A stretch of 60,672 bases of DNA, taken from positions 1 through 60,672 of IMG/VR virus record IMGVR_UViG_3300025146_000015, one strand, 5' to 3'. The stretch is from a virus (taxonomy: Duplodnaviria; Caudoviricetes). This document shows, piece after piece, positions 1,505-19,803 of the stretch (positions are counted from its first letter, which is position 1; the number at the start of each line of letters is the position of its first letter). The notes under the pieces are model-generated. The model had not been told where the DNA came from. It was given only the letters and a program-made list of their open reading frames with translations, and did not search any database. Position numbers and translations under genes: made by a program.

Positions 1505-1547
1505 CGCGGGCCTGTCCCGCGGGCAACCAAACCAAGGAGAAACGACC

Positions 1548-3074: not shown

Positions 3075-3121
3075 GCCTGACCGGTTCGGCGAACAAAACA
3101 ACGAGACGAAAACACTAGGGC

Positions 3122-3154
3122 CGAGCCTGGGCGCCGCGTGCGCGCCCGGGCTCG
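3122..3154 (+). other. GC-rich stem-loop between sheath and tube genes
   Basis: CGAGCCTGGGCGC...GCGCCCGGGCTCG inverted repeat; no U-tract, so possibly a processing or stability hairpin. Confidence 0.5.
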
Positions 3155-3194
3155 AGCCTTGTTTGCGCGCGGACTCGCGCGATGGAGCAAGCAC

Positions 3195-3578
3195 ATGACG
3201 GCAGTTGGTGGCAGCATCGAATCTCTCTCGCTCCGAGGTCGGATCTTCGCGGTACCCGCGGACACCGATGCAACTCGGAAGCTCGGCGGCTGGGTCAACG
3301 AGGTTGCGGCAAACGGGAACGGCACCGCCCGCATCATCAAGACTAGAGAACCGCTGATGATCGAAGGCCTCGAGATCGAGGTCGACGACACTCGGGCGGA
3401 CCAGGAGTTTCTGCAGGAGATCGCGGACGGCCAAGACTTCGTGGCATTCGCGGTCACCCTGGCGTCGGGTGTCACCTACCAGGGCAAATGCATCCTCACC
3501 GAGGCGCCGTCGTACAGCACACAGAAGTCGACGGCCAGCGTCAGTCTGTCTGGCCCCGGCAAGGCCGAGCAGCAGTAG
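3195..3578 (+). CDS. tail tube protein
   Basis: GGAG RBS; 127 aa ORF directly after the sheath gene. Confidence 0.8.
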   Translation: MTAVGGSIESLSLRGRIFAVPADTDATRKLGGWVNEVAANGNGTARIIKTREPLMIEGLEIEVDDTRADQEFLQEIADGQDFVAFAVTLASGVTYQGKCILTEAPSYSTQKSTASVSLSGPGKAEQQ

Positions 3579-3602
3579 GCGCACCACGCGGAGCACGCAC
3601 GC

Positions 3603-4082
3603 ATGGCCAAACAGAACACCGGCCCCACCGAGGGTCGGCATAAAGCAACTCGCATGGAGCACGCACGCATGACCGAACAGAAGATTGCCACCGAGGTGGC
3701 AGAACAGGAGTTCCAACGATTCCTGGAGTCCATGGATCTCGACGTTAGCCCCGAGGGTATGGACGACGATGATCGTAAGAGCTTCGAACAAGCGAAGCGC
3801 CGTTTCCTGGCGGCCGTCTCAAGCGGAAACCTTGTCGTCAACGAGAAGGGGGAACCGGTGTTCACGCCGAGAGCGAGCGAACCGTCTACCCCGGTGACGT
3901 TCTACGAGCCGAAGGGAGCAACGCTCTTGGCCATGGACAAGGGTCAAAAGGGCCACGACATGGACAAGATGTTCAAGGTCATGGCCGAGTTGACCCGCGA
4001 GAATGCGCCGCGGTTCGCGAAGATGGCGGGGCGCGACATCAAGGTCTGCCTAGCGATCGTGGGCCTGTACCTGGGGGGATAG
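3603..4082 (+). CDS. tail assembly chaperone (gpG-like); second in-frame start at 3669
   Basis: Between tube and tape measure genes; ends CTG GGG GGA TAG (slippery site). Confidence 0.75.
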   Translation: MAKQNTGPTEGRHKATRMEHARMTEQKIATEVAEQEFQRFLESMDLDVSPEGMDDDDRKSFEQAKRRFLAAVSSGNLVVNEKGEPVFTPRASEPSTPVTFYEPKGATLLAMDKGQKGHDMDKMFKVMAELTRENAPRFAKMAGRDIKVCLAIVGLYLGG

Positions 4083-4348
4083 CACCCGCTGGTCCGACCG
4101 GGGTCACTGTCGCGACGTCCCTTGTTCGCGACGGCGTGGACCAGCGGCTCCTCCGGGCCAGGCGCGAGGACGGTAAGACGCACGCGGCCCACACGCTCGT
4201 CAACGTCTACACCGAGATGCTGCGGCAGATCTGTAGGGACTACTCCGGGCTACCGGACTGCCGCACGCTGACGCTGGGCGAGATACGATTCTTCTACGAA
4301 GGTCTTCGACCAGAACTCAAAGCAGCCACTAAGCCAAGGAAGAAGTAG
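4073..4348 (+). CDS. -1 frameshift extension of the tail chaperone (gpGT-like)
   Basis: Heptamer G GGG GGA at 4073-4079; the -1 frame is open from there through the 4136-4348 ORF (LPDCRTLTLGEIRFFYEGLR). Confidence 0.7.
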   Translation, partial: GGIAPAGPTGVTVATSLVRDGVDQRLLRARREDGKTHAAHTLVNVYTEMLRQICRDYSGLPDCRTLTLGEIRFFYEGLRPELKAATKPRKK

Positions 4349-4350
4349 CA

Positions 4351-6780: not shown

Positions 6781-8195
6781 TGGCGACGTGGGAAGACAGA
6801 ATTCGTGAGGCGGCATACACCTCTCCAAAAAGCGGGACAAGGATCGTCTTTGACTACGAGGACGTAAGTCGAATTGTCGAGCTCAGAACCGCAGCGTTTG
6901 GGTTCCCGGGAGTTGACGGCGAGTACGTCCAGCAGAACGGCTATGGCTCAAGACGATACCCGATGCGCTGCATCTTCTGGGGATCGTTGCACGACATATC
7001 AGCCACTGTTTTCAATGAGTTGCTGCTGGAGCCCGGCATCGGGAAGCTGGAACACCCAATGTATGGGACGTTCAACGTTGTCCCGTTCGGAGAGATCACA
7101 CGGCGCGACGACTTGAAGACAGGCGCAAACCAAACAATCATCGAAGTTACGTTTTGGACAACGATCCGCGAGCTCTTTCCGCTGGCCTTGCAGGATCCTG
7201 GGAGCGTGATTGCCGCGGCCCTGCAAGCATTCACTCTGGCGTCAGCCCAGCAGTTCGCAGACGCTACAGACCTATCGGACGCAATATCGAAGGCGGCTGG
7301 CAAGGGTCTGATCCGCGCTCTGCTGAACATCGTCAGCGACACCCTGCAGCAGGTGTCCGACCTCGTGTCTGGGGTCAATCGCGACTTCCGTGACCTGCAG
7401 AGCACCATCAACTACGGGATGGACGTCCTCATCGGGCAGCCACTGCAGCTAGCCCAGCAGATCGCAAACCTCATCACGGCCCCTGCCCGTGCAATCGACG
7501 GACTCAAGTCGAGGCTAGATGCGTACGGGGAGCTCTTCGACAGCATCTTCGAGTCGGAGGCAGGGAGGCCCGGCGATGCGCTGGACTCGGTTCCTACGGC
7601 AACGGCTGGCCGCATCGGTGTGACGCGGCGGACTCAGCTGATCGCCAACGGGTTCCACGCGGCCGACCTGTTCGCTGCGCACGCAATGGCAGGCAGCGTC
7701 ACGAGCACGCTGGACTCAACGTTTCAGGCGCAGCAGACGATCGCGCTTGAGGATGCTCCGAGCGGGTACAGGCAGCCAGCTGGGAAGGCTGGAGTCTTTC
7801 TGGCGAAGCCGGACGCAATCGTCGCGGCCGAGACGCTTCTCGCGCAGATGGACGCATACACGGCCTGGCGGGAAGCGGGGTTCGTCGCGCTCGGGGCCGT
7901 GCCGAAGACAGGAACCTACCAGCTGGACGCCGGAGCCTCCTATGCCGAGCTGCATCGGGCGGTCTCGATAGCGGCTGGAAACCTCATTCAGATCTCATTC
8001 AACCTCGTCCCCGAGCGGCGACTGGTGCTCGATCGGGAAAGGACGATCGTCGACCTCGCATCTGAGTTCTATGGGCACGTCGATCCGGTCGATGGCTTCG
8101 ATCCGCTCGACTACCTGATCGAGACGAACAACCTCACCGGCTCTCAGATCCTCGAACTGCAGCGTGGGCAAACGGTGAAGTACTACCATGCCTGA
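6780..8195 (+). CDS. Mu gp43-like DNA circularization/tail protein
   Basis: N-terminal WEDRIREAAYTSP and GKLEHPMYG motifs; follows the tape measure gene. Confidence 0.8.
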   Translation: MATWEDRIREAAYTSPKSGTRIVFDYEDVSRIVELRTAAFGFPGVDGEYVQQNGYGSRRYPMRCIFWGSLHDISATVFNELLLEPGIGKLEHPMYGTFNVVPFGEITRRDDLKTGANQTIIEVTFWTTIRELFPLALQDPGSVIAAALQAFTLASAQQFADATDLSDAISKAAGKGLIRALLNIVSDTLQQVSDLVSGVNRDFRDLQSTINYGMDVLIGQPLQLAQQIANLITAPARAIDGLKSRLDAYGELFDSIFESEAGRPGDALDSVPTATAGRIGVTRRTQLIANGFHAADLFAAHAMAGSVTSTLDSTFQAQQTIALEDAPSGYRQPAGKAGVFLAKPDAIVAAETLLAQMDAYTAWREAGFVALGAVPKTGTYQLDAGASYAELHRAVSIAAGNLIQISFNLVPERRLVLDRERTIVDLASEFYGHVDPVDGFDPLDYLIETNNLTGSQILELQRGQTVKYYHA

Positions 8196-9276
8196 GCGGG
8201 TCGAGGTGCGTATCAGCGAGAAAGCGTTCGCACATTGGTCGAGTCTCGAGATCAACCTAGGTCTGGACACGATCGACACCATTGCGCTCTCGGCCCCGTT
8301 TGAGGCAGAGCGACGCGAGTTCCGGGAGCTTTTCCGGCCATTTGGGTTCCAGCCGATCGATGTGACGCTCGACGGTGTGGCTCTCTTCACCGGGACACTG
8401 GTCGAGGTCACTCCGAACGTCACGGAGGAGTCAAGCACGGTGGACGTTGCAGGCTACGCCATCCCTGGTGTCCTCGGGGACTGCAGCCCGCCGGCCTCTG
8501 CGCTCCCGCTCGAGTGGCACGGGGTAGGGCTTCGTGAAATCTGTGAGCTATTGTGCGCACACTTCGGAGTCGACGTCGACTTCGGACTTAGAGACAATGC
8601 TCCATTCGGTAAGGTCGCCCTCGACCCATTGAGCGAGAAGAGGGCAAACGAGTGGGACAAGAAAGCGATTCATGAGCAGACGCTGCCGTGGGCCTTTCTG
8701 ACGAAGCTGGCCCAGCAACGGAACGCACTGCTGACGAGTTCAACGCGCGGCAAGCTGAAGGTGTGGCGTGCCGAGACGTCAGGAACGCCCGTGGCTCAGC
8801 TCGAGGGAGGCCTACCACCGCTCGTCAAGGTGACACCGAGCTTCAGCCCTCAAGACTACTACTCGGAGATTACTGGGTTCGCTCCGGCCAAGCGCGGCCG
8901 CAAGGGCACCAAGTGGACCGAGAACAACCCCAGGCTCGGGTCAAGCGTGCGACCGCATTGTTTCAGTTGCGACGACTCCGAGGACGCCGACGCACCGATG
9001 GCCACGGCCGCGAAGCTGTCAAGGATGTTCGGAAATTCAATCAGCTACATGATCGAAGGTCTTCCAACTTGGCGAACACCGCAGGGTGACATCTGGAGGC
9101 CGAACACCTTCATCCGGCTGAAGGCGCCGAACGCCATGGTCTACGACTGGACAGACCTGCTGATTCGAAACGTCAGGCTGAGCCAGACAGAAGAAATGGA
9201 AACCGCAGACCTGAACGTCTGCCTGCCCGGATCGTTTGGTGGCGAAGTGCCGAAGAGGTTTCCGTGGGAGCTCTAG
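8188..9276 (+). CDS. baseplate hub (Mu gp44-like)
   Basis: 362 aa; WRTPQGDIWRPN motif; synteny. Confidence 0.8.
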   Translation: MPERVEVRISEKAFAHWSSLEINLGLDTIDTIALSAPFEAERREFRELFRPFGFQPIDVTLDGVALFTGTLVEVTPNVTEESSTVDVAGYAIPGVLGDCSPPASALPLEWHGVGLREICELLCAHFGVDVDFGLRDNAPFGKVALDPLSEKRANEWDKKAIHEQTLPWAFLTKLAQQRNALLTSSTRGKLKVWRAETSGTPVAQLEGGLPPLVKVTPSFSPQDYYSEITGFAPAKRGRKGTKWTENNPRLGSSVRPHCFSCDDSEDADAPMATAAKLSRMFGNSISYMIEGLPTWRTPQGDIWRPNTFIRLKAPNAMVYDWTDLLIRNVRLSQTEEMETADLNVCLPGSFGGEVPKRFPWEL

Positions 9277-9857
9277 GCGAGGTCAAGGCAGCGAAGTCGA
9301 CCGACAGCGGACTCGACGTCGAGTTCGATCAGAGCGGCGGGCACATCCGGACCGCTGATCACTTCGACGGAGCGGGCACCGACGCGGTCCCGCTACCGGG
9401 CGACACGGTGGCCCAGCAGCCCTGCTCGGGCACGGGTTCGGTTCTGGCCGTTGGCTACTGCGACCCGATCGCCGCCAACCGGAAGGCCACCGCGGGTGAG
9501 CGCCGCATCTACAGCCGCAACCCACTGACCGGGGTGGCGGTGGCCGAGGTCTACTGCAAGGCCGACGGAACCATCGTGATCGCGTCGCTCAACGGGTCAC
9601 CCATCGAGCTCACGTCTACGGGCCGCGTGACGGTGAACGCCCCCGACGTTCGCCTTGGAGCAGGCGGTCGGCAGGTAGCGTGTGTGGGCGATTTCGTGGG
9701 TGGTTCGATCCGAGGGGTCACGCTGGTGGCCGGAGCTCCGGTTCCGCTCCTGCCTCTACCTCCCGCCACACCTAGCCCGACCGGCGGCGTCACCTTCGTG
9801 GGGCAAATCATCAGCGGTGTCTCGGGAGTATCGGCCGGTACTGGCACGGGTACCTAG
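9264..9857 (+). CDS. baseplate spike (Mu gp45-like) with PAAR-like C-terminus
   Basis: PLPGD and GERRIYSR motifs; C-terminal QVACVGD...GQIISG. Confidence 0.75.
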   Translation: MGALGEVKAAKSTDSGLDVEFDQSGGHIRTADHFDGAGTDAVPLPGDTVAQQPCSGTGSVLAVGYCDPIAANRKATAGERRIYSRNPLTGVAVAEVYCKADGTIVIASLNGSPIELTSTGRVTVNAPDVRLGAGGRQVACVGDFVGGSIRGVTLVAGAPVPLLPLPPATPSPTGGVTFVGQIISGVSGVSAGTGTGT

Positions 9858-9860
9858 CCA

Positions 9861-10904
9861 GTGAGTATCGCGTTCCTGGGTGCGCTGCCTGTCAGCGCCG
9901 TCAACATCGGCCTGCAGGCCTCAATTGCTTGTCTGCAAGCGGAGATTACCAAGCTCGAGCTCGACATCACCGGTCTGACCCCCGCAATCGCCGCAAGCAT
10001 TGAAGTCGGCCTCGACTTCCCGCCGGTGGCTCTCTCCTACGCAGCAGAACTCGCGGCACGGCTGAATCTAGCCGAGATCACCGCGGGGCTCGACCCAACG
10101 ACGTGGGTGTCGGGGGCGATCGACGGCAATGTCGAACTGGCTCTTACGCTCGGACTCATCGACTTGAAGCTACAGGTCGTCTTGGCCATCACGGCCCCCC
10201 TTGAGCTCGGACTCGCGGTACCTGGCATCTCCGGTTGGAGCTACAGCGGGACGGCACACGGGTTTGGTGCCCTGCTCAGCACGGCAACAGCAAGCGGGTT
10301 CGGAAACACGCCGGCGCCCGCCCAGGTCCGCGCAACGATCATCGCGACCGAAAGCCCGGGGACCTGGCTCGGGTTCTCGCAGGGATTCAACACGGGAAGC
10401 TCGGCGGACGGTCTGCACTACCTCGGGCAACTCGGGGCCGCCGAATGGAGCACTGGCCTCGGGACTATCATGCTGCGGCTGCGGGCACTCCTGCTCGAAC
10501 TCGAGGGAATGAAGGCCAGCCTAGAAGCACAGCTTCAGATCTCACTGGGCCTGAACCTTCCCAACCCGCAAATCCTGCTGGACGTAGGCCTCGGTCTAGA
10601 CCTCGGCGTCATGCTCGAAAACATGGTCAACGTCCGGGCGGATATCACGGTCGCGATTGGCAACATTCAGCTTCGCATTGACGCCCTGCTCGACCTGATC
10701 ATCGCGCTTAACGCGCAGCTTTCAGGCGGAGGGCTTGCCTGCTGGACCTACGAGGGGCCGGCTTCGCTGCTCGGTGAGGAACTGCTGGGCCAGATCAAGA
10801 TGGGTGTTCCGGGCGGCAACGGGCCAACAGCTCAGATCTCTGGACTCGTGCTCGCGAGCACTCCGGCAAACATGAACACCTTCAGCAACATCTTTGCAGC
10901 ATGA
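9861..10904 (+). CDS. hypothetical Leu-rich protein with internal duplication
   Basis: 347 aa ORF coupled to both neighbours; two halves ending in GxxxW(S/T)YxG. Confidence 0.6.
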   Translation: MSIAFLGALPVSAVNIGLQASIACLQAEITKLELDITGLTPAIAASIEVGLDFPPVALSYAAELAARLNLAEITAGLDPTTWVSGAIDGNVELALTLGLIDLKLQVVLAITAPLELGLAVPGISGWSYSGTAHGFGALLSTATASGFGNTPAPAQVRATIIATESPGTWLGFSQGFNTGSSADGLHYLGQLGAAEWSTGLGTIMLRLRALLLELEGMKASLEAQLQISLGLNLPNPQILLDVGLGLDLGVMLENMVNVRADITVAIGNIQLRIDALLDLIIALNAQLSGGGLACWTYEGPASLLGEELLGQIKMGVPGGNGPTAQISGLVLASTPANMNTFSNIFAA

Positions 10905-11326
10905 CCGACGTCGTACTCGAGAACACGTCGGACGGCGGCGAGATCACCATCACGAACGGGCTGTTCACGATGGGCGACGGGCTTGGTGCAGCCGTCTACC
11001 TGTCGCTGTTTGGCGGTAACGTCGAGGACGGCGGAGCCGACGGAGACAAACCAGTCCAGTGGTGGGGCAACTGGTCCGAGACTGAAGCATCGCATCAGTA
11101 CCGGAGCGAAACTCAGCACCTGCTGAAGTCGCTCCCGCTCATCCCGGCATCGCTTCGCAGGATCGAGGACGCGGTGACGCGGGACACGGCGTGGATGGTG
11201 CCGACCCCGGCAAGCGCGATCGCCGTCGTGGTGACGATGCCAGCGCTGAACACCGTGAAGATTCAGATCGACGTGACGGTGAATGGCAAGGTGTTCCAGT
11301 TCATCTACGTCGAGACAGGAGTTTAG
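10901..11326 (+). CDS. baseplate wedge protein (Mu gp46-like)
   Basis: AVYLSLFGGN...WWGN motif. Confidence 0.8.
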   Translation: MTDVVLENTSDGGEITITNGLFTMGDGLGAAVYLSLFGGNVEDGGADGDKPVQWWGNWSETEASHQYRSETQHLLKSLPLIPASLRRIEDAVTRDTAWMVPTPASAIAVVVTMPALNTVKIQIDVTVNGKVFQFIYVETGV

Positions 11327-11328
11327 AC

Positions 11329-11622
11329 GTGGCGTACGCAGACGAGCAGTCCGTCCCATTCAAGGACCAGAACGTCATCGATTCGGCATCCCGCACGTGG
11401 GCAGCACTAACCCCGCACAACTCTACGAATTTCGCGTTCGTGCCGAGGGCCGTGCACTGCAATGCTTGCACTGACGCGGCGGGCGGCACGTTCGTAGCGG
11501 TAGGTGAGGACGATACGGTGGGGACGTTCTTTGCTCGCCCCGGGGATATCATCCCGATCCGTCCGAAGAGAATCAACACGACCGGGCTAGCTGCCGGAAT
11601 GGCGTTTACTGGGCTGAAGTAA
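11329..11622 (+). CDS. head-spike base protein (RcGTA rcc01079-like)
   Basis: AALTPHNSTNFAFVPRAVH...GDIIPIRPKRINTTG resembles the family pattern as I recall it; GTG start at 11329. Confidence 0.6.
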   Translation: MAYADEQSVPFKDQNVIDSASRTWAALTPHNSTNFAFVPRAVHCNACTDAAGGTFVAVGEDDTVGTFFARPGDIIPIRPKRINTTGLAAGMAFTGLK

Positions 11623-11624
11623 AA

Positions 11625-12815
11625 ATGGCGTTCCCCGTCCAGACAACCCAGCAGGTGAGCGACACGATCGTCGCGCAACTCGCGGCAAGTCTGTCGCAGA
11701 CGATCCCGTTGCTACCGAAGTCGTTCACGCGCGTCCTCGCGAAGTCGATGGCGGGTGTTTACGTCATGCTGTGGAGGTACGCGGGGTTCATTTTCCTGCA
11801 GATGTTCGTTCGGTACGCGACAGACGAACCAACTAAGATCGGCACGCTCATCATCAGACCACTTACCGAATGGGGACGGATCTCCGGGGTCGGAGAGCGT
11901 GGCCAGGGTGAGAGAGCGGAGTTGACGGTCGCTGTCACGGTGATGAACCAGACAGGGACGATGGCGGCTGGAAAGCAGCTGCTACGTGCCGCAACCGGAG
12001 TGATCTACCTCACACTGGAGGATGTCCTCCTGGATGCTCCGATCGTCAACGTCACGGTCCGGGCGGTTTCCGACCAGGATGGGAACTCGGGAGTCGGTGC
12101 GCTAGGGAACCTAGAGGCTGGCGATGTCGTAACGTTCCTGTCGCCAGTGCCGAACGTGGCGCGCGATGCGTCCGTCGTATCGCTAGACGTCACGGGGGCC
12201 GATGAGGAGACGGTCGACTCCTACAGACTTCGAATCATCCGCCGCTTTCAGACTCCGCCCCAGGGCGGAGCGTATGCTGACTACCAGCAATGGGGCGAGG
12301 GAGTCGCGGGGATCCTGCACGTGTACCCGTACACGGGCGATCCGGGCGAGATGGACATCTACGTCGAGGCTACAGTCGCAAGCTGCGGGGACCCGGACGG
12401 GATCCCTCTTCCGGCGCAGCTCGTCGCTGTCGAGGCAGCAATCACCTACGACGACGCGGGACTGGCCTCGAGGCGCCCCGCAGGAGTCGAGCTGATCAAC
12501 ACCTACGCGATCACCCGGACCGCGTACGACGTCGAGGTGACGGGGCTCGATCCCGACACGCCAGCGCTGCGCACCGGCATTCAGTCGGCGCTTGAAGAGT
12601 ACTTCCTGGACCGCGAACCGTTCATCCTCGGGCTCTCGCCATTGCCACGCAAAGAGCGCGTCACCGCAGGAGACATCTACGCGACCACGGCCGGCGTAGT
12701 GGCCGCACATGGGTCGTCGATAGGCGACGTCACGAGCCCGACGCTCGGCGGATTGGTCGTGGACATTCTTGGGCACGGGGAAAAGGCGAAGCTGGGAACT
12801 CTCACGTTCTCCTGA
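11625..12815 (+). CDS. baseplate J-like protein (Mu gp47-like)
   Basis: GADEETVDSYRLRI and PQGGAYADYQQW motifs. Confidence 0.9.
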   Translation: MAFPVQTTQQVSDTIVAQLAASLSQTIPLLPKSFTRVLAKSMAGVYVMLWRYAGFIFLQMFVRYATDEPTKIGTLIIRPLTEWGRISGVGERGQGERAELTVAVTVMNQTGTMAAGKQLLRAATGVIYLTLEDVLLDAPIVNVTVRAVSDQDGNSGVGALGNLEAGDVVTFLSPVPNVARDASVVSLDVTGADEETVDSYRLRIIRRFQTPPQGGAYADYQQWGEGVAGILHVYPYTGDPGEMDIYVEATVASCGDPDGIPLPAQLVAVEAAITYDDAGLASRRPAGVELINTYAITRTAYDVEVTGLDPDTPALRTGIQSALEEYFLDREPFILGLSPLPRKERVTAGDIYATTAGVVAAHGSSIGDVTSPTLGGLVVDILGHGEKAKLGTLTFS

Positions 12816-12821
12816 GGCATC

Positions 12822-13988
12822 ATGGCAATAGAGCTCTCCACTGAGTACCCGACGCAGGTGGACACGGACGCCGCGTACCCCTACGGGAAGCCGCGTAACC
12901 GCTCAACGCCGACCACCCAGGACGGAACTCCGTTCGAGGAGAAATGGGTGCAGGACCTGCACGGGTTCTTGCAGGCTATCCTGGTGACGGCAGGTACCAC
13001 ACCGAGTGGTACGCCGGACAGTGCGACAGTCAGCCAGCTGCTCGACTCAATGCGTGTAATTGCCCGCACGATTCTGTCGGGTCAGATCCTGAACATCAAT
13101 AGCGGCGGCTACCACTTCGTCTATGGAACGCTGGAGGTCAAAGGGGGTGGGGTGGCGAGGCTGCAAGCGACGTCCGAAATGGAAGTCGAGTCCGGCTCCG
13201 AGGTGAACGTGGAGTCCGGTGGAGAAATCAACGTCGAGTCCGGTGGCAACATCAATGTCAACTCCGGGGGCGACATCGAGATCGAGGACGGCGGAGAGAT
13301 CAACGTCCAGAACGGTGGAGAAATCAACCTCGCTGCTGGAGCCATCGTTGATGCAGTGAGCGGGGCGAATATCCACATTCGTACCGGTGCTCAGATCCAT
13401 GCCTACGCCGGATCGGAGGTCCAGATTGACGGGGTGCTTCAGGCCATCAGCGGGGCGGAGGTCAGGGTAGCGGACGGCGCGACCCTAACGATCGATGGTG
13501 GAGGCAACTGGCCCATCCTCTCCTCGCGTGGAGAATGGCTGCCGTGCAGGGGACACTTCTCATTCTCGACGCCAGCGCAATGGACCGATGCAGACGGAGC
13601 TGGTTTTTCATGCGCGCTCAACACTGCGTGTAAAATGTACTGTCGCGTGGGAGTGCCCGATCACTTCACGATCACCGAGGTGAATGTCAGGTGGAACGGG
13701 CCAACACATCCCACCTGGCCACCACAGAACCTCACAACATTTTCAGCCTACTGGGTGGATTCGACAGCTGGAGGCAAGACGCTACTCGTTGAGACTCCTG
13801 ACACCAGTGCGCAGGTGACGTACGAGGCTTTCCATGTGTTGAAACTCGAGGGGTTCTCGCAAGTTGGCTCGCCAGCGGGTTACCTACTCATCGAGATGCT
13901 GACCGAGAGCGGGACGAATGCGGTGCTCGGATCCATGTGGGTGTCGTGCGAGATGCTCGCGACCATGACTGAGCTTCGCAACGGGTAG
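12822..13988 (+). CDS. tail fibre protein
   Basis: N-terminal anchor (YPYGKPRN...DGTPFEEKWVQDLHGFLQA...SQLLD); central 8-residue GGEINVES repeats. Confidence 0.75.
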   Translation: MAIELSTEYPTQVDTDAAYPYGKPRNRSTPTTQDGTPFEEKWVQDLHGFLQAILVTAGTTPSGTPDSATVSQLLDSMRVIARTILSGQILNINSGGYHFVYGTLEVKGGGVARLQATSEMEVESGSEVNVESGGEINVESGGNINVNSGGDIEIEDGGEINVQNGGEINLAAGAIVDAVSGANIHIRTGAQIHAYAGSEVQIDGVLQAISGAEVRVADGATLTIDGGGNWPILSSRGEWLPCRGHFSFSTPAQWTDADGAGFSCALNTACKMYCRVGVPDHFTITEVNVRWNGPTHPTWPPQNLTTFSAYWVDSTAGGKTLLVETPDTSAQVTYEAFHVLKLEGFSQVGSPAGYLLIEMLTESGTNAVLGSMWVSCEMLATMTELRNG

Positions 13989-13994
13989 CTGCAG

Positions 13995-15896
13995 ATGGCG
14001 TGTCTAGTCGGCGAAGTCACACTCGATAGGAGCTCGGATCAATACCGAGGCTCGGGACTCGCGTGGACGATCTTCCACCAAATCAGCTACTTCTGGAACG
14101 GCGATCGCGTCGCGCTCCGCGAGAAGTCTCCGGAGTTAGCCGCTCAGGCGAAGGGGCTGGCGACCGTACTCTGCGCGATGTTCGACGATGCCGAGGCAGC
14201 GTGGCAGCTCCCGATCGGAACGATCATCATTCTGGGCGTGGCAGATGACCCGGCTACGCTCTACGGCTACGGCACATGGGAAAAGGTAGCGACAGGTCGG
14301 GTGCTGGTCGGTCAGGACATCACCGACCCAGACTGGGATGTGCTCGGAGAGACGGGCGGGTCGAAGACGCACACGCACTACGTGGAGGCCCACGATCATG
14401 GGATGGCCCACACCCACGGCATCACCGCGCACGCTCACCCGATCGGCACGCACGTGCACTCGGTGGGTGGCCACATACATTGGTTTGGGCACAGCCATGC
14501 GTGTCCAGAACATCAGCACTATGGTCCAAGTCACGATCACACGTTGAGTGCGCACACGCACCTTGGCGCAAGCCACGCTCACACCCTCAGCGCGCACACG
14601 CACCTTGGCGCAAGCCACGCTCACACCCTCAGCGCGCACACGCATACGGGCGGCTCGCACACGCATTCGCTAGGCGCGCATACGCATGATGGCAGTTCGC
14701 ACACGCACGGCCTGAACGACCATACGCACAACGGACCGAGCCACGCGCACACGATAACGCACACGCACGCGGGTCCGAGTCATGACCACACGATAACGCA
14801 CACGCATGCGGGTCCGAGTCATGACCACACGCTAGGCAGTCACACGCACACGGGACCGTTGCATGCGCACAGCATGTCCCACAACCATGGAGAATCAGAC
14901 CACACACACGCGGGGCCGAGCCACGATCATTTGATGCCCCACACGCACCTGGGAGCGAGTCACGCGCACACGTTGAGTGCGCACACGCACACTGGTGGAC
15001 TGCACTCGCATACGCTGACTACGGCAGCCGTTGCCAGCGGGTCAGGGGCGGTGGGCTTGGGTTCGTCCACCACGGGGGCTGGCGGCGCGGTAGATTCTGG
15101 CGCGCCGAGCAACGACACGACGGGTAACGGTGGATACCTGGCGACAGGCTCTCCGAGCATTGCCCAAACAAGCCTCGGTGGGGCGAGCGCTACGAGCGGG
15201 CAGCTCGAAGGAGCTACCTACACGAGCCAGCCGCTACCCACCAACGTAACAACTGGTGACTCCGGTAGCGGTAACACAGGGAGCGCATCCGGAAACACTG
15301 GCTCAGGCGGCACGGGGAACACCGGCGCGTCCAGCGCGGCAAGTACCGGTCTAGGCGGTACCGGCAGCACCGGAGCGTCCAGCGCAGCAGACACCGGGAA
15401 TGCCGGAAATGGAGCGACAAGCGGACCCAGCGTGGCGAGCACTACCGCCGGAGGGACTGGAGCGACCGGTGCACCGAGCTTTGATCTGACGGGCGGCGGC
15501 GGAACAGTTCCGTCTAGCACGCCGGACTCTGACACGACAGGCAACGGCGGTGTGCTGGCGTCACAGGGACCCAGTACGGACACGACTGGCAACGGTGGCT
15601 ACCTGGCGACCGCAGCCCCAGACGTGGACCACACCGGGCTTGGTGGAGCCGATCCAACGAGCGAGCCCACAGTGAGCCCGCTCTATACGAGCGTGCCCAT
15701 AGACACACAATACACTGGCGCGAACGATGCGTTCAACACGAGCGCGGCGGCGTCTGGAAGCACCGGCAATAGCACCGAGATCGCGAGCGGCGCGTCGTCG
15801 GAGGCATCAACCGCCGAGGGCGGCGGAGAGAACACCGACGAGGCATCGAACGTGATGCCGTTCTACACGGTCGTGTTCTGGAAGCGGGTGGCATGA
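13995..15896 (+). CDS. gp10-C-type baseplate/fibre protein with a very long HxH needle
   Basis: PIGTII...GYGTWEKVATGRVLVG...TGGSKT and C-terminal NVMPFYTVVFWKRVA enclose 32 HxH motifs and a G/S/T-rich segment. Confidence 0.8.
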   Translation: MACLVGEVTLDRSSDQYRGSGLAWTIFHQISYFWNGDRVALREKSPELAAQAKGLATVLCAMFDDAEAAWQLPIGTIIILGVADDPATLYGYGTWEKVATGRVLVGQDITDPDWDVLGETGGSKTHTHYVEAHDHGMAHTHGITAHAHPIGTHVHSVGGHIHWFGHSHACPEHQHYGPSHDHTLSAHTHLGASHAHTLSAHTHLGASHAHTLSAHTHTGGSHTHSLGAHTHDGSSHTHGLNDHTHNGPSHAHTITHTHAGPSHDHTITHTHAGPSHDHTLGSHTHTGPLHAHSMSHNHGESDHTHAGPSHDHLMPHTHLGASHAHTLSAHTHTGGLHSHTLTTAAVASGSGAVGLGSSTTGAGGAVDSGAPSNDTTGNGGYLATGSPSIAQTSLGGASATSGQLEGATYTSQPLPTNVTTGDSGSGNTGSASGNTGSGGTGNTGASSAASTGLGGTGSTGASSAADTGNAGNGATSGPSVASTTAGGTGATGAPSFDLTGGGGTVPSSTPDSDTTGNGGVLASQGPSTDTTGNGGYLATAAPDVDHTGLGGADPTSEPTVSPLYTSVPIDTQYTGANDAFNTSAAASGSTGNSTEIASGASSEASTAEGGGENTDEASNVMPFYTVVFWKRVA

Positions 15897-16522
15897 TGAG
15901 AAACGAGAAAGCGGATATCTACTTCGCGGTTTCGAGTGGTAAAGGTGGCCCAGTCTGGCCATTCGTGTTTGGGTGCCTCGATGCGACGCACCGGTTCGGC
16001 GGGCGAGGTGGGGCTCCCGGGCTGATGCCGTTCGTTCAGACCGGTCTGTACGTTCCAGAGAACCGCGACATCCTGACGGCACGCTTCGTGGCTTCTGGCT
16101 GTCGCCACATGTTGATGGTTGACACAGACATAGGATTCTCAGCAGACGCGATACAGGATCTGTTGGACAGCGAGCGGGACGTCGTGAGCGGTACCTATCA
16201 CTACCAGGACGGTTCTGGTGTCGTGGTAGGGACGAGTACGGGAGAAATGGACGGGGCGTTTGAGAAATGCACCGTAGTACCTGCGGGATTCCTGCTCGTG
16301 ACGAGGGCGGCTGTCCTAAAGCTCATGGCAGCCATGCCGGAGGACGTCTACGTGGTTCCTGGCGTCGGACTTGTCCCGGCGTTGTGGACCGCTAGGTACC
16401 AGCCTGGTGTGCCGTGCGGCCGAGACGATACCGCATTCTCAAAGCACTGCGTGGATGTGGGGATACCGCTCTGGCGTCACACGGGCTTGGTGCTGTCCCA
16501 CCACGGGAGCGCGGTCTACTAG
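15893..16522 (+). CDS. GT-A-fold glycosyltransferase-like protein
   Basis: NRDILTARF...HMLMVDTDIGF (DxD)...AGFLLVTR...DDTAFS...LSHHG. Confidence 0.65.
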   Translation: MMRNEKADIYFAVSSGKGGPVWPFVFGCLDATHRFGGRGGAPGLMPFVQTGLYVPENRDILTARFVASGCRHMLMVDTDIGFSADAIQDLLDSERDVVSGTYHYQDGSGVVVGTSTGEMDGAFEKCTVVPAGFLLVTRAAVLKLMAAMPEDVYVVPGVGLVPALWTARYQPGVPCGRDDTAFSKHCVDVGIPLWRHTGLVLSHHGSAVY

Positions 16523-16863
16523 AGCGTTCTGCCTTCGCAGGTGATCTCGACTCGGCACCCGTCGATGTACGCCATCGACCGGTAGAATCCGGGCTCGCAG
16601 GCGGCGGCGAGGGTGAATTCAGAGTCCCCTCTCCAGCATCGGATCCAGCCCATGTATTGCTCCGGATCCACCGGAACGCACTGCCAGCCGTCGGAGACTT
16701 CGGCGACCTCGCCTCGCCCGATGAGACGGGCCTCCCCGTCGCATTCCACGATGGCCGACCAGACGTTGGGACCGATGGTCTGCAGCCCTTCGGTTTCGAT
16801 CCTCTGACACGATCCGACGCTCACGGCAACCACCGAGCCAATGACGAGAACGAGAGCCCTCAT
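16519..16863 (-). CDS. Cys-rich putative lipoprotein (moron)
   Basis: Antisense to the tail operon; MRALVLVIGSVVAVSVGSC signal/lipobox-like N-terminus; TTGACC-N16-CATCAT just upstream. Confidence 0.55.
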   Translation of the reverse strand: MRALVLVIGSVVAVSVGSCQRIETEGLQTIGPNVWSAIVECDGEARLIGRGEVAEVSDGWQCVPVDPEQYMGWIRCWRGDSEFTLAAACEPGFYRSMAYIDGCRVEITCEGRTL

Positions 16864-16947
16864 GTCCCACATGATGACCGCTGCGGACGCTTGGTCAAGT
16901 AGCTGACGGGATCAACCGGGATCAACCACCTAAGCCCGCACCGTAAC

Positions 16948-17841
16948 ATGCCGTTCTTCCGTCAGATTCAGCATCTGCTCCCCCGCTCGACCGCCTGGTC
17001 GATCATCATCGACAAGGTGTTGAGGCGGTTCTTCGTCGGGCTGGCCGAGGGCGCTCCGACCAGCGCAAGGGCCGCGATAGATTCGGTCTGGACCCAACTC
17101 GATCCGACGACAACGACGGAGCTCGACGAGTGGGAGCACCAGCATGGGATCTGGTTCCCTGCTGCGACCACGGGAGACCGGCAGGACGCCATCGCTGCCG
17201 CGTGGCAGGCGCTCGGAGGGCAGTCCCCGAGGTACCTCCAGGACACGCTGCAGGCGGCAGGGTTCGACGTCTACTATCACGGGTGGCGCGACCCCGGGAC
17301 GGGCACCGTACTGGACCCGCACGACTACACGACCGAGCCACAGGTCGGTCTCTGGCAGTGCGGAAATGAGGAGGCTCTTTGCGGAGAGGCGTTGGAGCAA
17401 AACACTCCTCTGCTCGATGGGTTCCTCGCGAACGAAGTCTACTACCTCGTCAACGAGACGATGGACTTCATGCCACCCCCTATGATCCCGACGGATCCGG
17501 ACAAGTGGCGGTACTTCATTTACTTCCTCTTCGGCGACTCAGGCGGACTGGACCCGGCGCGGGAGCTGGAGCTCAAGCAACTACTCTTGAAGCTTTGTCC
17601 GGCGCACCTATGGATCGTCTACAACGACCCATGGCGCGTAACGATCGAGTCACCGCTGCTCGGAGCCGAGTTCGTTGTGGGTATAGCGACTGAGGTTTAC
17701 GGAACATCGAGCCTCGTTGGCGAGACGCTTGAGGCGTCGTTCGATGAGAACTTCGCGACGATCGTCGGAACCAGCGGGGTCATCCCTGCAGGCGGATCTT
17801 GGACAATAGACGTGACGGCTGCCCCGGGAGATGTTGACTGA
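16948..17841 (+). CDS. baseplate protein (Mu gp48/YmfQ-like) with C-terminal Ig-like repeat
   Basis: HLLPRSTAW, LDEWEHQHG, GGQSPRYLQ and LKLCPAH motifs. Confidence 0.8.
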   Translation: MPFFRQIQHLLPRSTAWSIIIDKVLRRFFVGLAEGAPTSARAAIDSVWTQLDPTTTTELDEWEHQHGIWFPAATTGDRQDAIAAAWQALGGQSPRYLQDTLQAAGFDVYYHGWRDPGTGTVLDPHDYTTEPQVGLWQCGNEEALCGEALEQNTPLLDGFLANEVYYLVNETMDFMPPPMIPTDPDKWRYFIYFLFGDSGGLDPARELELKQLLLKLCPAHLWIVYNDPWRVTIESPLLGAEFVVGIATEVYGTSSLVGETLEASFDENFATIVGTSGVIPAGGSWTIDVTAAPGDVD

Positions 17842-17899
17842 TCCAAGGGCAGACAAAACTCGAGTTTGGCACATGATTATAGAGCAAGGAAAGCTAGCC

Positions 17900-18169
17900 A
17901 TGGGACTAGGCATCGGCGTGGGATTGGGCGTCTGGAACACTCCTAGGAGAGTGGTGTCTGCGCTAGTGATCTCAGTGCCGCTTTCTGGGCACGAGTTTGT
18001 TGTTGGCGTACCCGATGAAGTGTCAGGGACGTCTACGGGACTTGTTGGCGCCACGCTACAGGCAGCGTTCACGCCGACGTTCGATGATATCGTCGGCACC
18101 AGCGGGGTCATCCCTGCAGGTGGAGCGTGGTCCATGGACGTCACGGCTGAGATAGGAGATGTGGGTTGA
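17900..18169 (+). CDS. putative head-fibre N-terminal part (MGLGIGVGLG anchor plus partial Ig-like repeat)
   Basis: AAGGA RBS before ATG 17900; Gly-hydrophobic alternating N-terminus; repeat shared with both flanking genes. Confidence 0.6.
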   Translation: MGLGIGVGLGVWNTPRRVVSALVISVPLSGHEFVVGVPDEVSGTSTGLVGATLQAAFTPTFDDIVGTSGVIPAGGAWSMDVTAEIGDVG

Positions 18170-19803
18170 TGGCAACTCTCTACATTCGCGAAGTCGGCGG
18201 CACGACGGCCCGGGCTACGCTGGCGTGCACGGTCACGTATATCGTGGTGTCATTCTCGTCTCCGTCTCCAGGGGCCGGATACATTATGGGCTTGGCGAGG
18301 ACAACCACGGGCACGTCGTCGCTAGACGTGCCGCTAGAGTTATCGTTCAGGTCTGATTTCAGTGTGATCGCCAGTCCACCCGGCGGAATCACGCCAGTAG
18401 GCGGAGCGTGGTCCGGACCAGTTACAGCGGTAGCTGGGGACGTCGGGCAGCCGAAACTCTATGTGCGCGAGGTCGGTGGGAGCACGTCACGAGATGATCT
18501 GGATGTTGTGACGACGGATTGGGAAGCCTGTTTTGCTGGGGCTACGCCCGTATTGATCTACGACATCAACCGAACTGATCTCGTGTCCGTCGTGGCGGGC
18601 GAGGTGATCTCGGTGACGCAAGTCACGGGCGGGACTGTGGCTGACGTTTTGGTGGGGCCATCCGGCAATCTAGCGTACGTGGCGAGCGATGCCGATTTTG
18701 GCGGGCTGCCTTCCGCTCGGAACGCCACCACCAAGTATCTGAAGAGCACCACGCCAGCGAGCGCTGCTTCGCAGGCACAACCTAATTACCGTGTGCTGCT
18801 AGCTACCGAGGCCGCAGCTGCCTCACAAATGTCTCTGGCCTGCGCAGACAACACGGATCGGCAAGAGCTGTGGTCCGAAGGCGCGATCACACCACCGTAT
18901 TGGGTGGGGTACGCCGGTGGACCGCTTCATCGCATCTATGCTGGAGAGACCGGGCGTACGAACATCATACCCAAGGAAATTGAGTCACTAGCGATCATCT
19001 ACTGCGACGGCGCGAACTCCTGGGTCCGCGTGAGGCGGTCTGATGGGCTGGTCGCGCAAGGCAAGGTGTGGTCAACGATAGGCACTCAGCAGATGCGAGG
19101 CGTGAGTTTGCTGGCACACAATTCCGGAGGAGTCAATGTCGTCGGCGCCGTTGCGGCCGAGGCCGATGTGACCGGGTTGACATCCGGTAACATTACGCTG
19201 CTCGATGGCTACGCCGATGCCATCTGGGGGACCACGAAGCACTATCGGACCATTGTTTCGTGTGTCGGAAACTCGCTCACGATTGGGGCGCCGCCAACGA
19301 TCGTCCCGTACCCCACGCCATTGCTGGCTCTATTGGGTGCAGATGATCAAGTCTGGAACTGGGGCCACAGTAGCTATGACACTGAGCAACTTACGGCGCT
19401 GCTGGCGACGGAGGGGGCAAAGCAATTCGACGGGATCAGCCACGCGCGCAACGTGATGATCCTGTGGGAGTCGGTCAACGATCACATCAACGATGGATGT
19501 ACCCCGGCGCAGTCGTACGCCCGGCACCAGGCATTTGTGACGGCTGCTCGTGCTGCGGGTTGGACCGGCTACATTCTGGTCACCGCGATCGGCCCGAACA
19601 ACGCCTGGTCTGAGGTGGAGCGGGCCGAATTCAATGCGTTGCTCGTGGCAGACAACGCCGGGGCTGACGGGACCGTGACCGCTATCTCTACCGACCCGGC
19701 GCTCGATCCGCCGGCGTATGACGGCCTGCACTACACGACGGCTCAGCACGTGCTCATTGCTGCCCACTTCCACGCGGCGATTGCCGCGCTGGCGTTCCCA
19801 TGA
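18169..19803 (+). CDS. fibre-like protein with C-terminal SGNH/GDSL hydrolase domain
   Basis: CVGNSLT (block I), ESVND (block III), DGLHY (block V); GGAG RBS and TGATG coupling. Confidence 0.7.
   Translation: MATLYIREVGGTTARATLACTVTYIVVSFSSPSPGAGYIMGLARTTTGTSSLDVPLELSFRSDFSVIASPPGGITPVGGAWSGPVTAVAGDVGQPKLYVREVGGSTSRDDLDVVTTDWEACFAGATPVLIYDINRTDLVSVVAGEVISVTQVTGGTVADVLVGPSGNLAYVASDADFGGLPSARNATTKYLKSTTPASAASQAQPNYRVLLATEAAAASQMSLACADNTDRQELWSEGAITPPYWVGYAGGPLHRIYAGETGRTNIIPKEIESLAIIYCDGANSWVRVRRSDGLVAQGKVWSTIGTQQMRGVSLLAHNSGGVNVVGAVAAEADVTGLTSGNITLLDGYADAIWGTTKHYRTIVSCVGNSLTIGAPPTIVPYPTPLLALLGADDQVWNWGHSSYDTEQLTALLATEGAKQFDGISHARNVMILWESVNDHINDGCTPAQSYARHQAFVTAARAAGWTGYILVTAIGPNNAWSEVERAEFNALLVADNAGADGTVTAISTDPALDPPAYDGLHYTTAQHVLIAAHFHAAIAALAFP

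What the first reader, a model, noticed from the sequence alone, without database searches (positions are those of the whole stretch)
14330..15850. Tail needle with 32 HxH motifs and a mirror-image return strand showing co-duplicated repeats
Seen: 32 consecutive HxH motifs at 6-7 residue spacing, then a nearly His-free G/S/T segment of similar periodicity, all inserted into a gp10-C-type domain. The duplications are nested: SAHTHLGASHAHTL x2 (early) mirrors DTTGNGG(V/Y)LA x2 (late); THTHAGPSHDHT x2 mirrors TGASSAAxTG x2; a third HTHLGASHAH near the turn mirrors the third DTTGNGGYLA just after the turn. Knowledge: the T4 gp37 tip is a trimeric out-and-back needle in which HxH motifs from three chains bind iron, with seven sites. 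Inference: an exceptionally long metal-threaded needle (up to ~32 ions) whose length evolves by paired duplications at two distant places in the gene.
Basis: partly seen in the sequence, partly recalled or inferred. Interest (0 to 1): 0.72.

Follow-up and report, generated by a model that had tools for sequence, protein, structure and literature searches.

The report
Very long histidine-stapled phage fibre needle
A tail-fibre gene of an uncultured contractile-tailed phage most likely builds a T4-style out-and-back needle about four to five times longer than the known ones, and it and its relatives appear to lengthen by copying matching pieces of the outgoing and the returning strand at the same height.

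Summary
ORF 13995-15896 (+, 633 aa) has 32 HxH motifs at 7- or 6-residue spacing (aa 126-339). A segment with a single His and a 16-residue period follows. Both lie inside a split gp10-type collar (aa 72-127 plus 616-633).

The window is a whole IMG/VR myovirus contig, and the gene sits in the baseplate/fibre module.

No structure prediction resolved the needle, so the architecture is inferred from four results.
- Split-collar topology: it matches T4 gp37, whose collar is residues 811-881 plus 1010-1026.
- Layer spacing: T4 uses 7-9 residues per metal layer; here it is 7 (outgoing) and 8 (returning).
- Arm lengths: in 42 homologues the return-arm length tracks the HxH-arm length (slope 1.18, r 0.95).
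- Selection: both arms are under purifying selection against a 32-motif orthologue (dN/dS 0.085 and 0.18).

One contiguous tip hairpin (aa 269-437) copies aa 139-213 plus 498-592.

In 16 proteins with tandem arrays in both arms, the arrays lie at the same height under the mirror model (placement simulation p about 0.0002-0.0008).

32 is not the database record; one metagenome protein has 41 motifs.

Metal binding, trimer state and physical register remain untested.

The scan had noted HxH fibre tips before on other DNA, including one look-alike fibre plus glycosyltransferase-like gene pair.

Verdict: a new variant of a known kind.

The parts
13995..15896 (+). Fibre gene, 633 aa plus stop. Its TGA stop overlaps the ATG of the next gene (ATGA).
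13995..14207 (+). N-terminal domain, aa 1-71: a short strand pair plus two helices. Probably the attachment domain.
   Evidence: AF2 pLDDT is 87-95 here. It is only 23 of 68 identical to the orthologue in L003, which also has a different upstream gene. There are weak fold matches (Z 4.4-4.8) to N-termini of chains in baseplate entries.
14208..14369 (+). N-terminal half of the gp10-type collar, aa 72-125.
   Evidence: Pfam PF21939 scores 35.8 bits against a cut-off of 27. It aligns to T4 gp10 residues 454-515.
14370..15011 (+). Outgoing arm, aa 126-339: 32 HxH motifs in 7/6-residue steps, mostly as 14- or 13-residue double units.
15012..15050 (+). Tip turn, aa 340-352. A short Gly/Ser/Ala/Thr loop with no aromatic head domain.
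   Evidence: Sequence. The orthologues L002p, L004p, P0001 and P0050 carry an aromatic-rich head at this place.
15051..15839 (+). Return arm, aa 353-615: one His, 16-residue period (roughly xxPSxDTTGxGGxxAx). It has two irregular YTSxP elements at aa 408-420 and 564-576.
15840..15893 (+). C-terminal collar strand, aa 616-633 (…PFYTVVFWKRVA).
   Evidence: It aligns to the C-terminal strand of T4 gp10, though that piece alone is not significant. The motif is shared by 129 of 194 proteins examined. AF2 pLDDT is 87-94.
14409..14633 (+). Base copy of the duplicated block, outgoing arm (aa 139-213).
   Evidence: Local alignment to aa 269-342, 43 of 75 identical. In orthologue L003p it is 52 of 75 without gaps; the next-best register there gives 41 of 75.
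14799..15305 (+). Tip copy, aa 269-437: one contiguous hairpin cassette of outgoing strand, turn and return strand.
15486..15770 (+). Base copy of the duplicated block, return arm (aa 498-592).
   Evidence: Local alignment to aa 346-437, 42 of 95 columns identical. Score 194 against 80 +/- 9 (maximum 131) in 200 shuffles.
14517..14666 (+). Tandem array in the outgoing arm: 14-residue units, 3.6 copies (LGAS type), height about 10-13 motifs.
15522..15611 (+). Tandem array in the return arm: 16-residue units (DTTGNGG type), height about 11-12.
14721..14837 (+). Tandem array in the outgoing arm: 13-residue units (AGPS/TIT type), height about 20-21.
15288..15419 (+). Tandem array in the return arm: 16-residue units (TGASSAA type), height about 20-21.6.
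15893..16522 (+). Translationally coupled 209-aa gene. A GT-A-like glycosyltransferase is a lead only. A possible partner of the fibre.
   Evidence: It lies just downstream of the fibre gene in the window and in L002, L003 and L004. Atlas neighbours partly carry Anp1 or Glycos_transf_2. There was no Pfam hit at E <= 0.1.

Best explanation
The gene encodes the receptor-binding fibre, or fibre tip, of a contractile-tailed phage, built on the plan of the T4 gp37 tip.

Proposed architecture, step by step:
1. A 70-residue N-terminal domain fixes the protein to the baseplate or to the neighbouring fibre protein. This is inferred.
2. A gp10-type collar is formed from aa 72-127 and from the last 18 residues. 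This is shown at the sequence level.
3. Everything between is one long excursion. The chain runs out for 214 residues, carrying an HxH motif every 7 (sometimes 6) residues. It turns in a loop of about 13 residues and runs back as a His-free Gly/Ser/Thr strand. The return strand uses about 8 residues per HxH layer, that is one 16-residue unit per two HxH motifs.
4. In a homotrimer, the three HxH motifs of each layer would give six imidazoles around one buried metal ion. In solved relatives the ion is Fe(II). That would make up to 32 ions in a six-stranded needle. This is inferred by analogy and was not tested.

Because each layer needs a piece of both strands, the needle can only lengthen if both arms gain matching units. 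The sequence records such events:
- a nested copy of a whole hairpin block (aa 269-437 copies aa 139-213 plus 498-592);
- height-matched tandem duplications, of 14 or 13 residues in the outgoing arm and 16 residues in the return arm.
For: Context: the window is a complete IMG/VR virus record. Its tail module runs sheath, tube, tape measure, hubs, Baseplate_J, fibre genes, Mu gp48-like.

Split collar:
- PF21939 scores above its cut-off.
- aa 72-127 align to T4 gp10 454-515, and the C-terminal strand aligns to gp10's last strand.
- AF2 is confident only for aa 1-130 and 612-633.
- The best Foldseek hit of the orthologue model is the T4 gp10 C-terminal domain (E 6e-3, prob 0.97).
- The T4 gp37 collar is likewise residues 811-881 plus 1010-1026 (passage in PMC6957217).

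Layer spacing: T4 gp37 has HxH at 883, 915 and 929 (outgoing) and at 966, 980, 989 and 998 (returning). That is 7-9 residues per layer. Here it is 7 and 8.

Arm lengths: 42 homologues have the C-terminal motif, a run of at least 3 HxH and no later HxH. In these the length after the last HxH rises with HxH-arm length. Slope is 1.18, intercept 51, r 0.95; without the window protein r is 0.89. All 128 scored give r 0.41.

Orthologues:
- L003p (630 aa) also has 32 motifs and is collinear, 487 of 634 columns identical.
- dN/dS against L003p is 0.085 for the HxH arm and 0.18 for the return arm, at dS 1.4 and 0.9.

Nested block:
- In L003p, aa 266-340 match aa 136-210 at 52 of 75 (next register 41). 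aa 357-399 match from aa 512 at 32 of 43 (next 25).
- The lags are 130 and 155, ratio 1.19 against 16/14 = 1.14.
- The window protein shows the same blocks.

Heights:
- The rule is: height = HxH index = (length - 15 - position)/8.
- In the window protein the tandem arrays fall at 10.2-13.1 and 20.1-20.6 (outgoing) against 11.1-12.1 and 20.1-21.6 (return).
- In L002p (25 motifs) one array in each arm falls at 15.6-17.4 against 15.3-17.8. The mirror model gives r 0.86 at zero offset; the parallel model's best is 0.75 at offset -5.

Family-wide:
- 16 of the 51 proteins with a run of at least 8 HxH have arrays in both the HxH arm and the downstream arm.
- For these the mirror model gives r 0.79 and median difference 1.25 motifs. 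The parallel model gives r 0.46 and median 5.25.
- Random placement of the return-arm array gave so small a mean difference in 0.02-0.08% of 20,000 simulations.
- Equal copy numbers occur, for example 5.0 and 4.6 in P0005 and 3.1 and 3.1 in L002p.
Against: - No model shows the needle. The AF2 monomer has pLDDT below 50 over most of aa 140-611. The short orthologue reaches 45-72 there.
- No sequence match to the solved gp37 tip. The PDB search returned 4 sequences, three gp10 entries and one unrelated.
- This protein and L003p lack the head domain of T4 and of their own shorter orthologues.
- In the window protein alone, the two tandem-array peaks lie symmetrically. A parallel model fits them as well as the mirror model (r 0.89 against 0.83-0.88). 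Orientation there rests on the third copies and on other proteins.
- Unit types are not paired in general. GPSHxH units occur in 30 of 197 proteins, but together with ASSAA units in only 5.
- P0062 has 25 HxH followed by 55 residues of another kind. HxH arrays can therefore exist without a downstream return arm.
- The homologues are related to each other, so the correlations overstate independence.
- The height rule uses a constant (length - 15) chosen from the gp10 alignment.
- dS of the HxH arm is near saturation.
- Which metal is bound, and whether any is, is unknown. T4 gp12 was solved with zinc (passage in PMC6116203).
Confidence: 0.72

Rival explanations
1. The HxH arm forms a metal-stapled three-chain rod by itself. 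The Gly/Ser/Thr arm is only a loose tether or coat, perhaps O-glycosylated. It must reach back to the collar but has no fixed register with the rod.
For: - A GT-A-like gene is translationally coupled to the fibre gene (ATGA). It lies just downstream of the fibre gene in the window and in L002, L003 and L004.
- The arm is Ser/Thr-rich.
- The models give it low confidence.
- P0062 shows an HxH array without a downstream return arm.
- A tether would also have to scale with rod length.
Against: - The arm has a strict 16-residue period with near-fixed Gly positions.
- dN/dS is 0.18 at dS 0.9.
- Slope near 8:7 with r 0.95 in the 42-homologue subset, not merely 'long enough'.
- Duplications are matched in height and often in copy number.
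Confidence: 0.13
2. The out-and-back needle is real, but the 'mirror' pattern of duplications is coincidence. Both arms are repeat-prone and only their total lengths are constrained.
For: - In the window protein a parallel model fits the two tandem peaks equally well.
- Unit types do not pair family-wide.
- Copy numbers differ in some proteins, for example 3.4 against 5.4 in P0020 and 4.4 against 2.6 in P0085.
- Only 16 of 51 proteins could be scored.
Against: - Placement simulation gives p 0.0002-0.0008, also without the window protein and L003p.
- L002p fits the mirror model at zero offset but not the parallel one.
- The tip copy is one contiguous hairpin whose two halves match the two base blocks. 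The lags are in the 16:14 ratio.
Confidence: 0.12
3. The His-rich stretch is not a structural needle. It would be a low-complexity metal-scavenging or pH-sensing region of a baseplate protein, or a slippage-driven expansion without function.
For: - Extreme composition: 64 His in 227 residues.
- No confident fold.
Against: - The regular 7/6 spacing is the same in an orthologue at dS about 1.4, with dN/dS 0.085.
- The split collar forces the chain to return.
- The same motif builds solved needles (passages in PMC12609058 and PMC6116203).
Confidence: 0.04

Closest known systems
Receptor-binding tip of the T4 long tail fibre protein gp37 (PDB 2XGF; collar, needle, head)
   Same: - The collar is split by the needle: 811-881 plus 1010-1026 in T4, aa 72-127 plus 616-633 here.
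- HxH motifs repeat every 7-9 residues of strand.
- The chain must double back to finish the collar.
   Different: - T4 has 7 sites shared between both arms (3 outgoing, 4 returning). Here all 32 are on the outgoing arm, and the return arm is a His-free 16-residue repeat.
- There is no head domain.
- There is no detectable sequence match to 2XGF.
- The next gene is GT-like, not a gp38 or Tfa-type chaperone gene.
Felix O1-type fibres: Bas63 gp26 and gp27 (cryo-EM 2025) and RBPseg class TC6
   Same: A gp10-like C-terminal domain connects to a T4-like needle with HxH motifs. The chain doubles back to give a six-stranded needle. The authors suggest that motif number follows needle length (passages in PMC12609058 and PMC12143355).
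   Different: Those fibres have six or seven sites and a head domain. They carry long N-terminal shafts. Matched duplications are not mentioned in the passages I read.
T4 baseplate protein gp10, C-terminal domain (Pfam PF21939; PDB 2FKK)
   Same: The only significant family and PDB sequence match. It is also the best fold match of the orthologue model.
   Different: In gp10 about 70 residues lie between the parts matched here (ends 515 and 585). Here about 490 repetitive residues lie between them.
Single HxH iron sites in R-pyocin fibres and in P2 gpV / phi92 spikes
   Same: Three HxH motifs give six His around an octahedral buried Fe. A role in chain registration and stiffness has been proposed (passage in PMC6116203).
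   Different: Those have one site per protein, and no out-and-back repeat array.

Membership tests
Pfam PF21939 Gp10_C (gp10/gp11/gp12/gp37-type collar) | Profile match above the curated gathering score | tested here: met
   35.8 bits against a cut-off of 27, E 1.8e-8, aa 73-183 on profile positions 7-110 of 139.
Pfam PF21939 Gp10_C (gp10/gp11/gp12/gp37-type collar) | C-terminal closing strand (…PYxVVxxWKRTA) present | tested here: met
   aa 616-633 align to the last strand of T4 gp10, though that piece alone is not significant. The motif is shared by 129 of 194 proteins examined. AF2 pLDDT is 87-94.
Pfam PF21939 Gp10_C (gp10/gp11/gp12/gp37-type collar) | Same three-dimensional fold | tested here: inconclusive
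   VIA-align gives Z 4.3 to 2fkk_A (92 residues aligned, 25% identity). Foldseek with the L004p model ranks 2fkk first (E 6e-3, prob 0.97), but nothing reaches E <= 0.001.
T4 gp37-type receptor-binding tip (collar-needle-head) | Needle inserted within the collar, so that the chain must return | tested here: met
   T4 domain boundaries from PMC6957217.
T4 gp37-type receptor-binding tip (collar-needle-head) | Repeated HxH motifs at the layer spacing of the solved needle | tested here: met
   7- or 6-residue spacing here, against 7-9 residues per layer from the T4 gp37 motif positions.
T4 gp37-type receptor-binding tip (collar-needle-head) | Six-stranded antiparallel needle of a homotrimer | not testable with these tools
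   Only monomer folding was on offer, and it left the needle below pLDDT 50. The support is indirect: arm scaling and height-matched duplications.
T4 gp37-type receptor-binding tip (collar-needle-head) | Octahedral Fe(II) at each HxH layer | not testable with these tools
   Needs metal analysis or a structure.
T4 gp37-type receptor-binding tip (collar-needle-head) | Head domain at the distal end | tested here: not met
   Only about 13 Gly/Ser/Ala/Thr-rich residues lie between the last HxH and the first return unit. Shorter orthologues do have an aromatic head.
T4 gp37-type receptor-binding tip (collar-needle-head) | Detectable sequence homology to the gp37 tip | tested here: not met
   phmmer against PDB sequences at E <= 1 returned three gp10 sequences and one unrelated protein, no gp37. 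I therefore file it as 'works like', not as a member.

The most novel reading that the evidence does not exclude
The needle is a modular, metal-stapled nanorod. Its building block is a layer pair of about 14 outgoing residues (two HxH sites) plus one 16-residue return unit.

Phages would tune fibre length over a roughly tenfold range in two ways. One is height-matched duplications in two distant gene segments. The other is, at least once, nesting a whole hairpin cassette into the tip of an existing needle.

The coupled GT-A-like enzyme would decorate the exposed Ser/Thr return strand. In these head-less needles the rod surface would then be the receptor-binding or shielding surface.
Probability: 0.3. 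Interest if true: 0.72.

Novelty: new variant of a known kind. Interest (0 to 1): 0.58.

Why it matters
Solved HxH needles have six or seven metal sites. This one would have about 32, and a database relative about 41. All sites sit on one strand, opposite a simple 16-residue partner repeat.

If the architecture holds, it gives three things:
- a clean natural series of syntenic orthologues (280, 551, 630 and 633 aa, besides database relatives of 248-401 aa) for asking how a trimeric fibre changes length without losing register;
- a concrete example of compensated duplications at two distant sites of one gene;
- a simple repeat grammar that could be used to design stiff metal-stapled protein rods of chosen length.

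It also bears on estimates of how much iron phage tails can hold. The ocean-iron hypothesis assumes six or seven ions per fibre.

Tried and rejected
Trimer prediction. I sent three copies of aa 229-495 with four Fe ions riding along. The result was 'no answer': score 0.00 in both runs and no controls folded. The tool states this is neither support nor evidence against, and I do not use it either way. The 1000-residue limit ruled out the whole C-terminal region.

AF2 monomer of the whole protein with a 31-sequence alignment. Mean pLDDT was 49. Only the N-terminal domain and the collar were confident.

AF2 monomer of the 280-aa orthologue L004p with 117 sequences. Mean pLDDT was 74, with the needle at 45-72.

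Fold searches. VIA-align wide gave no Z >= 8; matches to the N-terminal domain were at Z 4-6 and are leads only. Foldseek against the PDB gave nothing at E <= 0.001 and did not list the gp37 tip.

Search for closer relatives with single recent indels.
- Metagenome scan: only the L003 contig again, plus a gene cut by a contig end.
- Viral scan with the C-terminus: only the L003 contig.
- Genome scan: nothing, so no host is assigned.
- The phage collection held no cultured phage with this fibre: 8 records, all matching only parts of the N-terminal 190 residues.

General pairing of unit types between the arms. I tested it and rejected it as a family-wide rule.

Their Gly/Ser/Thr arm lies upstream of the HxH array.

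P0073 is an unrelated HLHLLAA repeat, not a fibre.

Literature. Four searches and the passages read showed no fibre with more than seven HxH sites and no mention of matched duplications. I read passages only, not whole texts or supplements. The 2010 gp37 structure paper is not held, so what I say about it comes from citing papers.
Full report
WHAT IS THERE

The window is a complete IMG/VR virus record of 60,672 bases, estimated 84% complete. Bases 1461-19803 of the + strand hold a contractile-tail module. Its order is sheath, tube, tape measure, two hub proteins, a wedge subunit, Baseplate_J (11625-12815), a fibre-like gene (12822-13988), the gene in question (13995-15896), a 209-aa gene, a Mu gp48-like wedge gene and a GDSL-like gene. 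The sheath is at most 55% identical to those of cultured phages of Shewanella, Aeromonas and Acinetobacter.

The ORF encodes 633 residues. It has 32 HxH motifs at aa 126-339, with 25 spacings of 7 and 6 of 6. Only two His lie elsewhere. Shuffles never reached this count. The maximum was 19 for the whole protein and 29 for the His-rich segment, each in 10,000 shuffles.

The return segment has a period of 16 residues, not 6-7. The HxH arm is organised as 14-residue (sometimes 13-residue) double units.

THE FRAME AROUND THE REPEATS

Pfam finds only Gp10_C, above its cut-off. Against PDB sequences, aa 72-127 align to T4 gp10 454-515, and the last 18 residues align to gp10's last strand. The collar is therefore split by an insertion of about 490 residues.

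This is the topology of the T4 gp37 tip, whose collar is residues 811-881 plus 1010-1026 (passage in PMC6957217). It is also that of the Felix O1-type fibres. In those, a collar holds a needle with HxH motifs, the chain doubles back at the head, and the needle has six strands (passage in PMC12609058; class TC6 in PMC12143355).

I read the T4 gp37 sequence from the public genome. Its seven needle motifs lie at 883, 915 and 929 on the way out and at 966, 980, 989 and 998 on the way back. That gives 7 to 9 residues of strand per metal layer. The present protein uses 7 residues per layer on the way out and 8 on the way back.

DO THE ARMS CHANGE TOGETHER?

From two database searches I examined 194 proteins. 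Of these, 129 end in the collar's closing motif, and 128 of them contain an HxH motif.

Among the 42 with a run of at least three HxH and no later HxH, the number of residues after the last HxH rises with the length of the HxH arm. The slope is 1.18, the intercept 51 and r 0.95; without the window protein r is 0.89. With all 128, r is 0.41, because many have extra tip domains or HxH in both arms.

Three syntenic orthologues came from viral contigs:
- L003p: 630 aa, 32 motifs.
- L002p: 551 aa, 25 motifs, with an aromatic head.
- L004p: 280 aa, short needle with a head.

L003p is collinear with the window protein, with only single-residue indels in the arms. dN/dS is 0.085 for the HxH arm and 0.18 for the return arm, at dS of about 1.4 and 0.9. 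Both arms are therefore constrained protein sequence, not drifting low-complexity filler.

THE MIRROR PATTERN

- In L003p, aa 266-340 match aa 136-210 at 52 of 75 residues without a gap; the next register gives 41. aa 357-399 match from aa 512 at 32 of 43; the next gives 25.
- The two lags are 130 and 155. Their ratio is 1.19, close to 16/14.
- In the window protein, local alignment pairs aa 139-213 with 269-342. It also pairs aa 346-437 with 498-592, at score 194 against 80 +/- 9 in shuffles.

The tip copy is thus one contiguous hairpin cassette, aa 269-437. Its two halves match two blocks that lie 284 residues apart in the chain, which is what a nested out-and-back structure predicts.

By eye, the irregular element YTSxP of the return arm (aa 408-420 and 564-576) falls opposite an odd heptad of the outgoing arm in both copies.

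I then applied a simple rule: height = HxH index = (length - 15 - position)/8. The tandem arrays of the window protein fall at heights 10.2-13.1 and 20.1-20.6 in the outgoing arm. In the return arm they fall at 11.1-12.1 and 20.1-21.6. These two peaks happen to be symmetric about the middle, so in this protein a parallel model fits them as well (r 0.89 against 0.83-0.88). Orientation is decided by the third copies near the tip and by other proteins.

In L002p, a three-copy 14-residue array (about 80% identical between copies) lies at height 15.6-17.4. A three-copy 16-residue array lies at 15.3-17.8. The mirror model gives r 0.86 at zero offset; the best parallel fit is 0.75 at offset -5.

Of the 51 proteins with at least 8 HxH in a run, 16 have a tandem array in both the HxH arm and the downstream arm.
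- Under the mirror model their heights correlate at r 0.79, with a median difference of 1.25 motifs.
- Under the parallel model r is 0.46 and the median difference 5.25.
- Placing the return-arm array at random gave so small a mean difference in 0.02-0.08% of 20,000 trials. This held with or without the window protein and L003p.

Copy numbers are often equal: 5.0 and 4.6 in P0005, 3.1 and 3.1 in L002p, 3.4 and 3.4 in P0043. They are not always equal: 3.4 and 5.4 in P0020, 4.4 and 2.6 in P0085.

A family-wide pairing of particular unit types does not hold.

WHAT WAS NOT SHOWN

No prediction resolved the needle. Fold searches support only the collar, and weakly. There is no sequence match to the solved gp37 tip. 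Trimer state, antiparallel packing and metal content are inferred from the solved relatives (passages in PMC6116203 and PMC12609058).

One protein, P0062, has 25 HxH with no return arm after it. HxH arrays may therefore also stand alone. The homologues are related to each other, so the p-values and correlations are optimistic.

HOW IT MOST LIKELY WORKS

Three chains leave the collar side by side. At each 7-residue step the three HxH motifs close around a buried ion, which sets the register of the three chains layer by layer. After 32 layers the chains turn in a short loop. They then run back in the grooves as Gly-rich strands, 16 residues for every two layers, and finish the collar with the last strand.

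Lengthening requires a gain in both arms at the same height. The record shows two routes:
- local tandem duplications of 14/13 and 16 residues;
- one nested copy of a block of about 11 layers, with its turn.

I cannot tell whether that copy arose in one event (a hairpin cassette inserted at the tip) or in two compensating steps.

The head-less tip of this protein and of L003p suggests that receptor contact is made by the turn or by the rod surface. That is speculation.

COMPARISON AND NOVELTY

The kind is known: T4 gp37, the Felix O1-type fibres, and Burkholderia and Alteromonas phage fibres with six or seven motifs. The following are new as far as my four literature searches and the passages I read go:
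- the scale, 32 sites here and up to 41 in a metagenome protein;
- the strict division of labour between an all-HxH strand and a His-free 16-residue partner repeat;
- the evidence that the two arms are duplicated together.

The scan has noted HxH fibre tips on other DNA before (72 notes). One note describes a look-alike fibre followed by a GT-like gene in another genome.

I rate this a new variant of a known kind, of moderate to good interest.

Noticed in passing
window 15893-16522 (+): A 209-aa gene whose ATG overlaps the fibre gene's TGA (ATGA). It lies just downstream of the fibre gene in the window and in L002, L003 and L004.

It has no Pfam hit at E <= 0.1. Its ESM Atlas neighbours are phage clusters, of which some members carry Anp1 (12%) or Glycos_transf_2 (11-33%).

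By eye, a DxD-like 'VDTD' lies in the sequence. It may glycosylate the Ser/Thr-rich return arm, or it may act on the host envelope.
   Followed up: partly
window 12822-13988 (+) and 13995-14207; L003 2898-4001: The N-terminal 70 residues of the fibre and the upstream gene vary together.
- L002 and L004 keep an upstream gene like the window's, and they keep the window's N-terminal domain.
- L003 has an unrelated upstream gene, and its N-terminal domain is only 23 of 68 identical.
- The collar and needle of L003p are about 80% identical to the window's.

This suggests that the N-terminal domain docks on the upstream gene's product.
   Followed up: partly
proteins P0002, P0003, P0010, P0023, P0031, P0041, P0047 (metagenome, about 800-1060 aa, some with PF06605): A second architecture in which the Gly/Ser/Thr/Asn repeat arm comes first and the HxH array (13-41 motifs) second, followed by a C-terminal domain of about 100-180 aa.

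The two arm lengths again go together, for example 303 against 284 residues in P0002. Over 15 proteins Pearson r is 0.67, but Spearman is only 0.34; my block detection was crude.
   Followed up: partly
protein P0062 (1414 aa): A collar-type protein with 25 HxH motifs, followed by only 55 residues of charged, non-repetitive sequence. This is an HxH array apparently without a return arm.
   Followed up: no
alignment A1, e.g. P0131, P0154, P0188: A large subfamily of short fibres. The outgoing arm repeats HxHTQ(N/D)(A/S) every 7 residues, and the return arm repeats A(T/V)NQxxT-like heptads. That is a 7:7 pairing instead of the 14:16 pairing here.
   Followed up: no
window 17650-18300 (+): The ends of ORFs 16948-17841 and 17831-18169 share a unit of about 30 residues (…IVGTSGVIPAGGxWxxDVTAxxGDV). 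The start of ORF 18166-19803 holds a looser copy of it. The genes overlap by a few bases.
   Followed up: no
window 13995-14207 (aa 1-70): The confident helical N-terminal domain gives weak fold matches (Z 4.1-4.8) to the N-termini of chains in several baseplate entries. These are phage Mu, pyocin R2, Pam3, XM1, Bas63, phi812 and diffocin. It may be a common baseplate-binding hairpin. Z is too low to say.
   Followed up: no
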